From a virus (lineage: Duplodnaviria; Heunggongvirae; Uroviricota; Caudoviricetes): a DNA stretch of 7,356 nt. Of the stretch, positions 3,001 to 7,356 are shown piece by piece. The stretch lies in IMG/VR virus record IMGVR_UViG_2778261453_000014; one strand, written 5' to 3'. Every line of letters begins with the position of its first letter. The stretch's first letter is position 1. Position numbers: made by a program.

Positions 3001-6000
3001 TGTGTCAGCTTTTCCGCAAGGTCTGACGGCGACGCCGCCCTGACAACATCGTAATGTTTAATCGACATCGAATTTCTCCCGTGTACAGGAACAGAGTTAA
3101 AAAGCCGGAACCGGAATCAAATCACAGGATGACCATCTGCCAGTGGCAGGTCATAAAAAAAAGGCTGCGCAATGCGCAGCCAGAACTCACAAGGAAAATG
3201 ATAAAAGGAATAACACTAGTGATGTACGCATGGCGCCTCCCGCTAAGTTCTGCAATGATCAAACAGAACTCGCTACGTGCCCTTAAAACTCGATCATTTA
3301 GCCCCTCCAAGGAGGATTCACCATGCGGTTGATTTTTTAATAAACAGTAAACAAAAAAGTCAAGAATTATTCATTCTGTTCTTTCATCATCGGCCACAGC
3401 AATACCACAATGCCGCAGACCAGAGCGCCATCAGTCAGTACCAACATTATCCTGCTGGTGAAATCCATCATCACCATCACTAAAAGCAGGATCACAACAG
3501 CAAGCAGACACAGTTTATAAAACAATGTTCAGAAAACGCATTCAGCATGCCTAAGGTTCTATTCCTACGAATAGCCAACTTGCAACTTAAAATATTATTT
3601 ATGCAGCCAATTAAATTCTGGTCCTTACAATATCAACCTGAAGATTCTTATCTTGTGCTGATTGATAAATGACAAACCTTTTACTACCTGCATTGAAAGA
3701 AGTAGACAAAACCAGACAATTATCATAACGAGCAAGAACATAATACCAACCATCATTATAATTAATCATTTCATATTCTTTCTTAAACTGTGGTTTGTAA
3801 TATCCTGTCAGAAATGAAAAAAGCCAGAAATATGCCACAAAAGCAATCATCACAATCTCAAAAAAATGTTTTTTTATAAATGGCTTATCATAGAAGCATG
3901 ATACCGATAAAAATCGCCCATAAGATCTTATCGAAATTGTAACCGCCAGCGCAATCGCTGCTGACAGTAGCAAAAGAGGTACCTGAATCTTCTGTCTCAA
4001 TATAGAAAACTCAATAATTGCCGGCACAAACAATAATTCCACAGCAAAATAAAGGCGAAATACATTTAGCTCTTGCATAGAATGTTTTCTTTTCACTGCG
4101 AAAAAGAATACAACACCAATACCCCAACCGATAAGAAATATAGCAATGACGATAACTGCAAAAAATAAACTTCTGGCAACATCATCAACACCTGCACCTA
4201 CAATCCACCATGGGAAGCCGTAGTAAAAAGAAGTACCCCATCCATAGAAATAAGCACTCCCCCATCCAAGGCATCCCATGTAGGCAATAAAAAGTGAAGA
4301 ACTCCTGAGCAGCGCACCATCCTTCATAACCACCCCAATACAAGATGATAACATTGGCTTACAACTCATAACAAAAGCAATTCAATGCCGTCAAGAGATT
4401 ACAGGCTAAAAAAACTCTATTACATAGCAGCCAGCATGTTTACCGTACAAGTACAACTCAGGGCATAAAAAAAACCCACTCGGCAGCGGGTTTATACATT
4501 TTTTACAACATACCAAATTTGCATGAAGTATATGGCTTTTAATCCAGTTTTGCAATATTTTGCTGTAAAAATGCTGCCTTTTGTTTTGAACGTGTTCTCG
4601 TCACAAGCAATAAAGCATCACTATCAAGCTGTAGAAAAATGTGCTTCATTGCAACCCAGCGTTCAGTAAATGTCTCGGACCAGTTTTTTGTTGTCACTCC
4701 CACCAATGATGCCAGTGTCTGGTATTCATAGGCCTCACGCCCTGCAAGTTCGCTCTTCACATCCTGTGCAGCCAGCCAGATTAACGTCTTCAGGCGATCC
4801 AGTGTCTTACCTGCAATTTTTCTGTTACTTAACAAATCTTTAAACTCGCTCCATGCCCATTGCGTTATGGTGACCTGATGCCCCCATCGAACGCTTTCGC
4901 TGTAACACCAAAGCAACCATGCTTTCTGATGTTCATCGAGAGACAAAACCGCGCGGCGCCATGAAGAGGTTGAGAATTCAACCGGGCTGACCAAAGCAAT
5001 GGATGAACCTTTTGCGTACGACTGCTTACCGGAAGTCGGCGTATTATCCAGCGTAATCATCTTGCCAGTTACCACATCCAGAATGCGCGGCTTCTTTCGT
5101 TTGTATGTACCAGTATCAAATTGTGCATGCTCCTGCCAGGCTTCGAGCTGGCCTTTCGTTGCTCCGTTCAAGTCAGCAGTAGCTGCCATAAGTTGCTCAC
5201 GAACATACTGTAAATATTGGGTATTCATGCAGTAAATCCTTTCTATATTTTGGCATAATTCTTCAACATTCGGTAATCGTTCAAAACCGAATCGGGGAAA
5301 CGACATAAGCACAGGAGCCCCCAGCGACAGCGAAGGAGTTCTGATATATAAGACTCAGACATCATTCATTCCCCGGTTCTCCAAAATCTGTTTCACTCAT
5401 CATCCATAACTACCTGTAATTGCCCCCCCTTTTTTTGTAACAGTTCTTATATTGCTATATAGAATAGCCATTACTAATGCATTTAAATTTAATAAAATAA
5501 AAATTATAAAAACATAAAACACCACGCAAACACACTTAATAAAACACCGTTACATTAAAAGATAATAAAAACCACAATAAAAAACGAATAAATCAATTGT
5601 CTCACACAATTATAAAACATCATATTGATTACGCACCTTGTATTACAAACTCATGTATGTAAAATACGCGCACCATTCAAAAAAAAGGAAGACAATAACA
5701 TATGAAAAAAAGTGTCATCGCTGGCGTCTTTATTGCTCTGTCATTTACCACGTGTTCAGCTATCGCGAACAGCCTTGCATTATCATTAGCAAATGATGAT
5801 GCAGGGAAGTTTCAACCAATACTTAATGATATTTATGGCAATAAACATGAAAACAGAGATGATTACTCACAAGGCTTATTTCTGGGATATAGCCACGATA
5901 TCTCAGACTCGAGCCAATTATCTCTCCATATTGCGCAAGATATTTACTCTCCATCAGGCAGTAATAAAAGACACAACACAGCTGTAACTGGAGACAGAGC

Positions 6001-7356
6001 TTTTAGTGCATACACTCACACTGGTATTGAATGGAACTCCCTTGCGAATGACTGGATTCGCTATCGATTAGGTACTGACATAGGTGTTGTTGGCCCCGAC
6101 GCAGGCGGTCAGAAAGTACAAAATAAAGCTCATGAGATTATTGGGGCAGAAAAATATCATGCATGGGATGATCAAATAGAGAATCGCTACGGTTATACTG
6201 TAAAAGGGATGCTATCCATGACACCAAGTATGGATATTTTAGGTGCTAATGTTGGATTATACCCTGAAGTTTCTGCTGTTACTGGAAACTTATTTCAATA
6301 TGTAGCATATGGCGCAACCATTGCCATTGGTAATGATAAAACCTTCAATTCGGATAATGGCTTTGGTCTGCTGGCTCCCCGTGGTTTAATGCATATGTCC
6401 GATACAAGCGGATTCAAATACAAGATTTTTGCAGGTATGGAAAGACGAGATGTCAATCGCAACTATACTCTCGAAGGAAAAACAATACAGACGAAACAAA
6501 CAACAGTATCGCTAAACAAAACTGTTGATGAATATCAAGTTGGCGCAACAATTGGGTATGCACCTGTAGCCTTCACACTAGCATTTAATAAAGTAACATC
6601 AGAATTCAAGACAGGGGATGACTATTCATTTATAAATGGAGCAATCACCTTCTTTTTTTAACTGAATTGAATTCAATCAAAATAACATAAGTCCAACAAA
6701 AACATAAAGTGCGAAATGAATGCTAGCTCCATTTATTTCGCACTATAAAAGATTAAAAGTTGCAATAAAATAATAAAATGACTCAGTTACGAAAACCAAT
6801 AAACTGTGGCCAGTAGTGAGTCGCTCATCATCGGGCTTTTTGGCGAATGAAATTTAGCTACGCTTTCGAGTCTCATGCGCCTTCTCCCTGTACCTGAATC
6901 AATGTGAGGTTTCCGCAGAACACTGCGCCAGTATCGATATACATCTGGTTGGCAAATTTGAGTGGTTTCACTGCTGGCGTATGACCAAAGATGAACGTGT
7001 CCGCGCCTTTGATTTCTTTCACGATCCCGTCTTGTGAGTTGCTGATTCGTTCGCGGTTCCAGATTACCTGCTGATGATCAACTGGCTTTCCAAACTCGTA
7101 TTTATCACAAGGATAATCGGCGTGGCAGATGACATATTTTTTTCCTTTACTCACCAGTTCGATGATTAACGGAAGTTCATCTGCTTTATGGGCAAGAGCT
7201 TTAGCCAGAATTTCTTTGTCGTAATCGAGATTAAAGAACCAGCCACCGCCATTAAGCAGCCAGTGATTGACGTTTCCACTGGATTTGCCCCTATATTTCC
7301 AGACACCTGTTATCACTTAACCCATTACTGGCCTGCTGCCGCAGATATTCCCGTGG

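What the first reader, a model, noticed from the sequence alone, without database searches (positions are those of the whole stretch)
5702..6661. Prophage-borne lpxR-like lipid A deacylase inserted antisense between the nin phosphatase and Q
A 319-aa outer-membrane barrel has a signal peptide and active-site residues in register with Salmonella LpxR (N9, D10, S/T34, H122 after cleavage). It sits on the strand opposite the phage early/late transcription, in AT-rich DNA. This is a lysogenic-conversion cargo that can remodel lipid A and alter innate immune recognition. Its placement immediately upstream of Q means pR-derived transcription must cross it antisense.
Basis: partly seen in the sequence, partly recalled or inferred. 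Interest (0 to 1): 0.5.

Follow-up and report, generated by a model that had tools for sequence, protein, structure and literature searches.

The report
Prophage-carried LpxR lipid A deacylase gene

Summary
The 319-aa ORF at 5702-6661 (+) is real. It is a full-length member of the LpxR family: Pfam PF09982 at 137 bits, and E = 3.6e-153 with 74% identity to the solved Salmonella LpxR structure 3FID. The signal peptide is intact. The catalytic and Ca2+-binding residues N9, D10, S34 (T in Salmonella) and H122 are in register, as are D11, K67, Q118, E128 and Y130.

The gene lies on the strand opposite to every flanking phage gene. It sits in a roughly 1.43-kb AT-rich segment (39% GC coding, 27-29% GC flanks). 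On one side are a ninI phosphatase gene and a 29-codon remnant of lambda Q. On the other are a ylcG/Q82-type antiterminator module.

The protein is 100% identical to gp65 of phage 434, annotated 'outer membrane beta-barrel lipid A deacylase LpxR'. The locus occurs at full length in 618 of 5426 complete E. coli genomes, annotated as LpxR family. Published work already reports the E. coli O157:H7 protein as an active 3'-O-deacylase controlled by Pch and Ler, lists the same residue correspondences, and finds it in 97% of EHEC genomes.

The antisense-transcription point holds by synteny for intact phage 434. It is probably moot here, because ninI is cut by an IS2 element.

The parts
5702..6661 (+). 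lpxR coding sequence (319 codons plus stop): outer-membrane lipid A 3'-O-deacylase
   Evidence: ORF. PF09982 at 137 bits. 3FID at E = 3.6e-153. 100% protein identity to phage 434 gp65 and to WP_000750155.1.
5702..5767 (+). Signal peptide, residues 1-22 (MKKSVIAGVFIALSFTTCSAIA), with predicted cleavage before N23
   Evidence: Read directly from the sequence. The 3FID mature chain starts at the aligned position. No signal-peptide predictor was available.
5792..5800 (+). Codons for N31-D32-D33 (mature N9, D10, D11), the Ca2+-binding residues
   Evidence: Residue roles are from PMC6260217 and PMC6863877.
6131..6133 (+). Codon for H144 (mature H122), the catalytic base that activates the water
   Evidence: Role is from PMC6260217.
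5375..5701 (+). AT-rich upstream non-coding region (about 29% GC) specific to the lpxR segment. It presumably holds the lpxR promoter. A GGAAG ribosome-binding site lies at 5687-5691.
   Evidence: Composition. Homology to phage 82 rusA/orf45/Q ends at about 5374. The RBS position matches the phage 434 annotation. The promoter scan did not exceed chance.
6662..6803 (+). AT-rich downstream non-coding region (27% GC) specific to the lpxR segment
   Evidence: Homology to lambda Q starts at about 6804.
6708..6744 (.). 15-bp hairpin with a 7-nt loop. A U-tract follows it only on the - strand (UUUAUGUUUUUGUU), so it looks like an intrinsic terminator facing the phage early transcript. It may also serve as the 3' hairpin of the lpxR mRNA.
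   Evidence: Folds (z = -3.6 on +, -2.3 on -). The consensus terminator scan did not report it.
6787..6876 (-). 29-codon remnant of a lambda-type Q gene ([29 protein letters not shown]), marking the right-hand mosaic junction
   Evidence: About 97% identical to the 5' end of lambda Q in many phages. Annotated as 'antiterminator-like protein, N-terminal fragment' in phage 434. Translation.
6873..7279 (-). 3' part of the ninI-type Ser/Thr phosphatase gene, cut at 7279/7280
   Evidence: NCBIfam NF008516 matches only profile positions 89-218. Homology to phage 434 ninI stops at 7279.
5243..5365 (-). ylcG-like small gene (40 aa), the left-hand neighbour of the lpxR segment
   Evidence: Annotations. 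Translation. Homologous to phage 82 orf45.
4539..5228 (-). Q82-type late-gene antiterminator Q
   Evidence: PF06323 at 306 bits.

Best explanation
The ORF encodes LpxR. This is a 12-stranded outer-membrane beta-barrel enzyme that uses a Ca2+ ion (held by N9, D10 and S/T34) and a histidine-activated water (H122) to hydrolyse the 3'-acyloxyacyl ester of lipid A. The product is under-acylated lipid A, which is a poorer TLR4/MD-2 agonist. The gene is accessory cargo (a moron) of a lambdoid prophage. It sits in a 1.43-kb AT-rich block, on the strand opposite the phage genes, at the recombination joint between a lambda-type nin region and a phage-82-type ylcG-Q module. It is expressed from the lysogen's side rather than as part of the phage programme. 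In LEE-positive E. coli, published work places it under Pch and Ler control.

Shown here: family membership, conservation of the catalytic residues, gene context, protein identity with phage 434 gp65, and prevalence in E. coli.

Taken from the literature: the enzymatic activity of the E. coli protein, its Pch/Ler regulation and its immune effect.

Inferred: the position of the promoter, and the terminator function of the hairpin.
For: Family membership rests on PF09982 at full length, 137 bits, and on 3FID at E = 3.6e-153 with 74.3% identity over the mature protein. N9, D10, D11, S34, K67, Q118, H122, E128 and Y130 are all in register. PMC6863877 gives the same residue pairs for O157:H7 LpxR, and the mechanism roles come from PMC6260217. 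The protein is 100% identical to phage 434 gp65 and to WP_000750155.1. The locus is full length in 618 of 5426 complete E. coli genomes, annotated 'lipid A deacylase LpxR family protein'. The context is ninI, a lambda-Q remnant, ylcG, Q82-type Q, lysozyme and Rz. The segment boundaries come from phage homology, and the AT-rich composition. The activity of EHEC LpxR and its Pch/Ler regulation are from Ogawa 2018, as summarised.
Against: No activity was measured for this exact allele in this strain. Salmonella LpxR is described as having relatively low activity (PMC6260217), so presence of the gene does not prove that lipid A is remodelled under any given condition. Position 34 is Ser rather than Thr. 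That is conservative, and the published O157:H7 LpxR, described in the literature as an active deacylase, has the same Ser. No promoter could be identified above chance. The primary paper, Ogawa 2018, could not be read here, so its claims are cited second-hand. The direct fold test failed because the AF2 single-sequence model had pLDDT 28.5.
Confidence: 0.95

Rival explanations
1. The gene is intact but functionally silent or latent cargo in this host. It could be H-NS-silenced in the AT-rich block, or enzymatically latent in the outer membrane, so that it does not change lipid A in practice.
For: The flanks are very AT-rich, 27-29% GC. No promoter stands out above chance. Salmonella LpxR is noted for low activity (PMC6260217). 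lpxR was strongly down-regulated in adherent STEC (PMC7649339). It is not known whether the source strain carries LEE/Ler.
Against: The protein is identical in phage 434 and in unrelated E. coli strains, and the locus is at least 99% identical in about 620 genomes. That pattern is expected under purifying selection or recent spread. Reviews citing Ogawa 2018 report activity and an effect on phagocytosis in EHEC. A PerC/Pch-family regulator gene sits on the same prophage.
Confidence: 0.12
2. The gene mainly serves the phage rather than host virulence. For example, it might alter the outer membrane to affect superinfection, vesiculation or lysis.
For: It is carried by phage 434, a free-living lambdoid phage isolated from sewage. 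It lies beside the late-gene regulator Q.
Against: It is transcribed against the phage programme. Of 50,697 phage records, only the two records of phage 434 carry a homologue. Its distribution tracks LEE-positive pathotypes (PMC6724679; PMC6863877). I found no evidence for a phage-side phenotype.
Confidence: 0.05
3. It belongs to another outer-membrane barrel family and only resembles LpxR superficially. This is the refutation condition the first reader named.
For: None found.
Against: PF09982 is the only Pfam hit, and it is full length. The protein is 74% identical to the crystallised LpxR over the whole mature chain.
Confidence: 0.01

Closest known systems
Phage 434 gp65 (CPT_434_65, UMO75329.1), 'outer membrane beta-barrel lipid A deacylase LpxR'
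   Same: The protein is 100% identical. The DNA is 99.0-99.3% identical across window 2896-7279. Position and orientation are the same: between ninI plus the lambda-Q remnant on one side and ylcG plus Q82-like Q on the other.
   Different: Phage 434 is an intact phage with pR, N-dependent early genes, a full ninI, the SASA esterase and a pinholin. The window's element has ninI cut by IS2 and the esterase reduced to its DUF1737 stub, and its lysis region differs.
E. coli O157:H7 / EHEC LpxR (MC001 of PMC6863877; Ogawa et al. 2018)
   Same: It has the same length (319 aa), the same residue numbering for the active site (31, 32, 56, 140, 144, 150) and the same 74% identity to Salmonella LpxR. The gene is reported at 99.7-100% identity in 218 of 224 EHEC genomes. 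RefSeq annotates the identical protein WP_000750155.1.
   Different: I did not retrieve the O157:H7 sequence itself, so identity to that particular allele is inferred from the paper's figures and not measured here.
Salmonella enterica serovar Typhimurium LpxR (PDB 3FID)
   Same: It shares the family, the fold by homology, and all residues named as catalytic or Ca2+-binding. Identity is 74.3% over the mature chain.
   Different: Position 34 is Thr in Salmonella and Ser here, and there is a one-residue indel near residue 233. My recollection is that the Salmonella gene is chromosomal rather than prophage-borne; that was not checked here. A chromosomal Citrobacter orthologue (73% identity) shares no flanking non-coding sequence with the window.
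Lambdoid morons such as lambda bor and lom (general knowledge)
   Same: All are accessory outer-membrane protein genes with atypical base composition, inserted between phage modules and expressed from the prophage.
   Different: Those proteins are not enzymes acting on lipid A. lpxR also lies in the early-to-late regulatory junction, on the opposite strand.
PagL lipid A 3-O-deacylase (general knowledge)
   Same: It is also an outer-membrane barrel that removes an acyl chain from lipid A, and it has a similar immune-evasion rationale.
   Different: It belongs to an unrelated family, acts at the 3 position rather than the 3' position, and uses a Ser-His-Glu triad rather than a Ca2+/His mechanism. 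No PagL hit was seen.

Membership tests
LpxR (Pfam PF09982) lipid A 3'-O-deacylase | Scores above the curated family threshold over the full length of the profile | tested here: met
   137.4 bits against a cutoff of 26, covering profile positions 2-320 of 323.
LpxR (Pfam PF09982) lipid A 3'-O-deacylase | End-to-end homology to the crystallised enzyme (3FID) | tested here: met
   E = 3.6e-153. Query residues 24-319 align to chain residues 2-296 with one single-residue gap, and 220 of 296 are identical.
LpxR (Pfam PF09982) lipid A 3'-O-deacylase | Catalytic His122 and the Ca2+ ligands Asn9, Asp10 and Thr34 | tested here: met
   H144, N31, D32 and S56 are in register. Ser replaces Thr at position 34, as in the published O157:H7 protein.
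LpxR (Pfam PF09982) lipid A 3'-O-deacylase | Supporting active-site and substrate residues D11, K67, Q118, E128 and Y130 | tested here: met
   All are conserved at the aligned positions. Q118 and E128 are listed in PMC6863877. D11, K67 and E128 are discussed in PMC6260217. The role of Y130 rests on my memory of Rutten 2009.
LpxR (Pfam PF09982) lipid A 3'-O-deacylase | Outer-membrane targeting: a cleavable signal peptide and a C-terminal aromatic beta-signal | tested here: met
   Read from the sequence: MKK, a hydrophobic core, then AIA|NS, and a C-terminus of ITFFF. No dedicated predictor was run.
LpxR (Pfam PF09982) lipid A 3'-O-deacylase | 12-stranded beta-barrel fold | tested here: inconclusive
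   The AF2 single-sequence model was unusable, with mean pLDDT 28.5, so no fold search was run. The fold is inferred from 74% identity to 3FID. PMC6863877 reports a SWISS-MODEL 12-stranded barrel for the O157:H7 protein.
LpxR (Pfam PF09982) lipid A 3'-O-deacylase | Ca2+-dependent removal of the 3'-acyloxyacyl group of lipid A | not testable with these tools
   Reported for EHEC LpxR by Ogawa 2018, as cited. The primary paper is not held.
Lambdoid-phage moron / lysogenic-conversion gene | Lies inside a phage genome, between conserved modules, and is absent from otherwise homologous phages | tested here: met
   The segment 5375-6803 is flanked by phage 82-type and lambda-type homology. It is present in phage 434 and absent from all other phage records.
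Lambdoid-phage moron / lysogenic-conversion gene | Base composition distinct from the surrounding phage genes | tested here: met
   39.4% GC in the ORF and 27-29% in the flanks, against 45-54% in ninI, Q, lysozyme and Rz.
Lambdoid-phage moron / lysogenic-conversion gene | Own promoter and terminator, allowing expression from the repressed prophage | tested here: inconclusive
   Promoter-like sites do not exceed chance: 5 found against 7.0 expected. A strong hairpin follows the gene, but its U-tract is on the other strand. Pch/Ler-dependent transcription is reported in the literature.

The most novel reading that the evidence does not exclude
The placement of lpxR may be regulatory rather than incidental. 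A terminator-like hairpin (6708-6744) faces the early pR transcript just before it would enter lpxR antisense. N-antiterminated transcription therefore has to run head-on through lpxR to reach Q. This would shut off lpxR by transcriptional interference on induction. Conversely, active Pch/Ler-driven lpxR transcription could delay Q and hence lysis, linking the host virulence regulon to phage late-gene timing.
Probability: 0.1. Interest if true: 0.35.

Novelty: already known. Interest (0 to 1): 0.1.

Why it matters
LpxR-mediated 3'-O-deacylation lowers the endotoxic activity of lipid A. It is part of the horizontally acquired virulence repertoire of EHEC and EPEC, and it has been proposed as a vaccine antigen (PMC6863877). 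The case here shows that a reader working from sequence alone can recover a correct and detailed annotation. It adds no new biology: the gene, its residues, its prophage location, its prevalence and its regulation are already in the databases and the literature.

Tried and rejected
(1) AF2 single-sequence structure prediction gave mean pLDDT 28.5 and pTM 0.15. It was unusable, so no fold search was attempted. A deep alignment was not worth a 13-CPU-hour search when 74% identity to 3FID already fixes the fold.

(2) I tested MicF sRNA pairing, which is known for Salmonella lpxR (Corcoran 2012, via PMC7534054). The best duplex between the K-12 MicF 5' region and the lpxR mRNA is -17.1 kcal/mol, and 32% of shuffled seeds do as well. 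There is therefore no evidence either way. A short complementary patch at 5792-5802 is noted but not significant.

(3) The promoter and terminator consensus scan of 5200-6950 found 5 promoter-like sites against 7.0 expected, and 0 terminators. It does not locate the lpxR promoter.

(4) The genome-contig scan for relatives returned a single Citrobacter locus at 73% identity. Its non-coding flanks share nothing with the window, so the donor of the 1.43-kb block is not identified.

(5) Reynolds 2006 (PMC2702521) and Ogawa 2018 (pmid 29112299) are not held in the library. Their content is cited only through papers that summarise them.

(6) The NCBIfam library has no model that hits this protein. 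That reflects the library and is not evidence against membership.

(7) H41 and H42 seemed to cover 100% of the window. That was an artefact of joining an IS2 copy located elsewhere in those loci.
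Full report
**Observation.** The ORF listing reports an ATG-initiated ORF of 319 aa at 5702-6661 on the + strand, exactly as described. It is not a chance ORF. It gives a single, full-length Pfam hit to PF09982 (LpxR) at 137.4 bits against a cutoff of 26, covering profile positions 2-320 of 323. It matches the crystallised Salmonella LpxR (PDB 3FID) at E = 3.6e-153. Query residues 24-319 align to chain residues 2-296 with one single-residue gap, and 220 of 296 aligned residues (74.3%) are identical.

**Active site and targeting.**
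- With the mature protein starting at N23, residues N31, D32, S56 and H144 correspond to N9, D10, T34 and H122.
- D11, K67, Q118, E128 and Y130 are also conserved.
- The N-terminus MKKSVIAGVFIALSFTTCSAIA|NS has the layout of a Sec signal peptide, and the 3FID chain starts at that junction.
- The C-terminus ITFFF is a typical outer-membrane barrel ending.
- The roles of the residues are set out in PMC6260217. H122 activates the hydrolytic water. The Ca2+ ion is held by N9, D10 and T34 and polarises the scissile ester.

**Surroundings.** Every recognisable neighbour is a lambdoid-phage gene on the - strand:

| Window coordinates | Feature |
|---|---|
| 6873-7279 | ninI-type Ser/Thr phosphatase, C-terminal part only (NF008516 profile positions 89-218) |
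| 6787-6876 | 29-codon remnant of lambda Q |
| 5243-5365 | ylcG-like gene |
| 4539-5228 | Q82-type antiterminator (PF06323, 306 bits) |
| 3611-4369 | membrane protein |
| 3367-3525 | DUF3927 protein |
| 2841-3068 | DUF1737 stub of the nanS-p esterase |
| 1453-1986 | lysozyme |
| 496-963 / 558-743 | Rz / Rz1 |

lpxR is the only gene on the + strand in the 4.4-7.3 kb interval. GC content is 39.4% in lpxR, 28.9% upstream (5366-5701) and 26.8% downstream (6662-6803). The phage genes run at 45-54%.

**Boundaries of the cargo.** In megablast against 50,697 phage records, only window 6804-6870 matches other lambdoid phages to the right, at the 5' end of lambda Q with about 97% identity. To the left, homology to phage 82 (rusA end, orf45/ylcG, Q82) stops at about 5374. 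The lpxR-specific block is therefore about 5375-6803, or 1.43 kb. It lies exactly at a mosaic joint that truncated a lambda-type Q and attached a phage-82-type ylcG-Q module. This is the classic anatomy of a moron. A chromosomal Citrobacter orthologue at 73% amino-acid identity shares the coding sequence only, not the flanks, so the donor of the block is unknown.

**Is it known?** Yes, in every respect.
- The protein is 100% identical to gp65 of phage 434 (OL657226/7), which is annotated 'outer membrane beta-barrel lipid A deacylase LpxR'. The window is 99.3% identical in DNA to phage 434 over 2896-7279.
- The 1471-bp lpxR segment is present at full length in 618 of 5426 complete E. coli genomes, mostly at 99% identity or better. 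RefSeq annotates it as 'lipid A deacylase LpxR family protein', WP_000750155.1, and that protein is identical to the window's.
- PMC6863877 describes the O157:H7 protein (MC001). It has 319 aa and is 74% identical to Salmonella LpxR. Its active-site pairs are Asn 9/31, Asp 10/32, Thr/Ser 34/56, Gln 118/140, His 122/144 and Glu 128/150. These are the same numbers I obtained. The paper finds the gene in 218 of 224 EHEC genomes.
- Ogawa et al. 2018 (pmid 29112299) is summarised in PMC6393859, PMC7649339, PMC9263587 and PMC6863877. It showed 3'-O-deacylase activity, co-regulation with LEE through Pch and Ler, and reduced phagocytosis and inflammatory signalling.
- PMC6724679 finds lpxR statistically associated with LEE.
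- The 2026 Pas-sRNA preprint uses LpxR plus Q as the conserved neighbourhood of the PasD sRNA genes.

**Mechanism.** The shown steps are family membership, retention of the complete catalytic apparatus, an intact export signal, prophage context and high conservation. Two further parts come from the literature. The first is Ca2+-dependent hydrolysis of the 3'-acyloxyacyl ester, which yields less stimulatory lipid A. The second is transcription activated by Pch and Ler. The inferred steps are as follows. The AT-rich 5375-5701 region probably carries the promoter and is a natural H-NS/Ler target. The scan for sigma-70 sites did not exceed chance. An RBS, GGAAG at 5687-5691, sits 10 nt before the ATG and matches the phage 434 annotation. 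A PerC/Pch-family gene (PF06069, 149 bits) lies on the same prophage. Its first 10 codons occupy window 1-30 on the - strand.

**The antisense point.** In phage 434 the order is pR, cro, cII, O, P, ren, nin genes, ninI and the Q remnant (all on -), then lpxR (+), then ylcG and Q (-). The record annotates no - strand promoter between lpxR and Q. By gene order, early transcription must therefore traverse lpxR antisense to reach Q. A stable 15-bp hairpin at 6708-6744 (z = -3.6) is followed by a U-tract only on the - strand. That makes it look like a terminator facing the early transcript, which N-modified polymerase would override. This is inference, and the consensus scan did not call it. In the window itself the issue is probably moot. 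ninI is interrupted at 7279/7280 by the end of an IS2-family element; window 7280-7356 is 97% identical to IS2 ends in L005. In the closest genomic relatives the immunity and replication region is deleted altogether: int and xis are followed directly by a ninI fragment.

**What failed.**
- The AF2 single-sequence model was unusable, with pLDDT 28.5.
- MicF pairing was not distinguishable from shuffled controls.
- The primary papers by Reynolds 2006 and Ogawa 2018 are not held.

**Verdict.** Interest is 0.1. The only unexplored angle is whether convergent transcription between lpxR and the pR-to-Q read-through has regulatory consequences. I put that at about 0.1 probability, with modest interest if true.

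Noticed in passing
window 3152-3356 (-): Full-length but sub-threshold Rfam match to sRNA STnc100 (41.4 bits against a gathering score of 47, E = 1.6e-6). A 2026 preprint (10.64898/2026.05.13.724894) reports that the prophage sRNAs PasD1/PasD2 are related to STnc100. It places them next to the sialic-acid esterase gene and within 10 kb of Q and LpxR in over 98% of cases. This is probably a PasD-type sRNA gene. I did not have the PasD sequence to compare directly.
   Followed up: partly
window 7280-7356: Homology to ninI of phage 434 and of E. coli CFSAN004176 stops at 7279. The remaining 77 bases are 97% and 95% identical to the ends of IS2-family elements in locus L005. The phosphatase gene is therefore disrupted by an IS2 insertion, and the prophage is likely defective.
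   Followed up: yes
window 6787-6876 (-): A 29-codon ORF that is the 5' remnant of a lambda-type Q gene, about 97% identical to lambda Q. It overlaps the ninI stop codon and marks the illegitimate joint at which the lpxR block plus the Q82 module replaced lambda Q.
   Followed up: yes
window 1-30 (-), continuing beyond the window: The first 10 codons (MLHDHVAECL) of a 104-aa PerC/Pch-family transcriptional activator (PF06069, 149 bits, in the relative L002). Pch proteins are reported to activate lpxR together with Ler. The activator family and its target therefore sit about 5.7 kb apart on the same prophage remnant.
   Followed up: partly
window 6708-6744: A 15-bp hairpin between lpxR and the Q remnant. 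Its U-rich tail is on the - strand only, so it resembles an intrinsic terminator for the phage early transcript rather than for lpxR. The consensus scan did not detect it.
   Followed up: partly
window 2841-3068 (-) and 1-2895: The DUF1737 ORF is the N-terminal stub of the nanS-p (SASA) esterase that is intact in phage 434. To the left of 2896 the window no longer matches phage 434, apart from 83% identity in Rz. The late and lysis region is therefore a different module, and the esterase and holin region has been deleted or rearranged.
   Followed up: partly
window 5792-5802 (+): AATGATGATGC, the codons for the active-site N9-D10-D11, is complementary to the 5' end of MicF with one bulge. MicF represses Salmonella lpxR. 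The duplex energy (about -13 kcal/mol) is not better than shuffled controls, so this may be coincidence.
   Followed up: partly
window 3611-4369 (-): A 252-aa multi-pass membrane protein with 36% GC and no Pfam or NCBIfam hit, lying directly downstream of Q, the position held by stx in Stx phages (from general knowledge). It is conserved in phage 434 as 'putative membrane protein'. It may be a second AT-rich cargo gene of unknown function.
   Followed up: no
window 2112-2375 (+): An 87-aa ORF on the + strand between the lysozyme gene and the esterase remnant. RefSeq annotates it as hypothetical (WP_001001501.1), and it has no family hit. It is another opposite-strand insert in the late region.
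   Followed up: no
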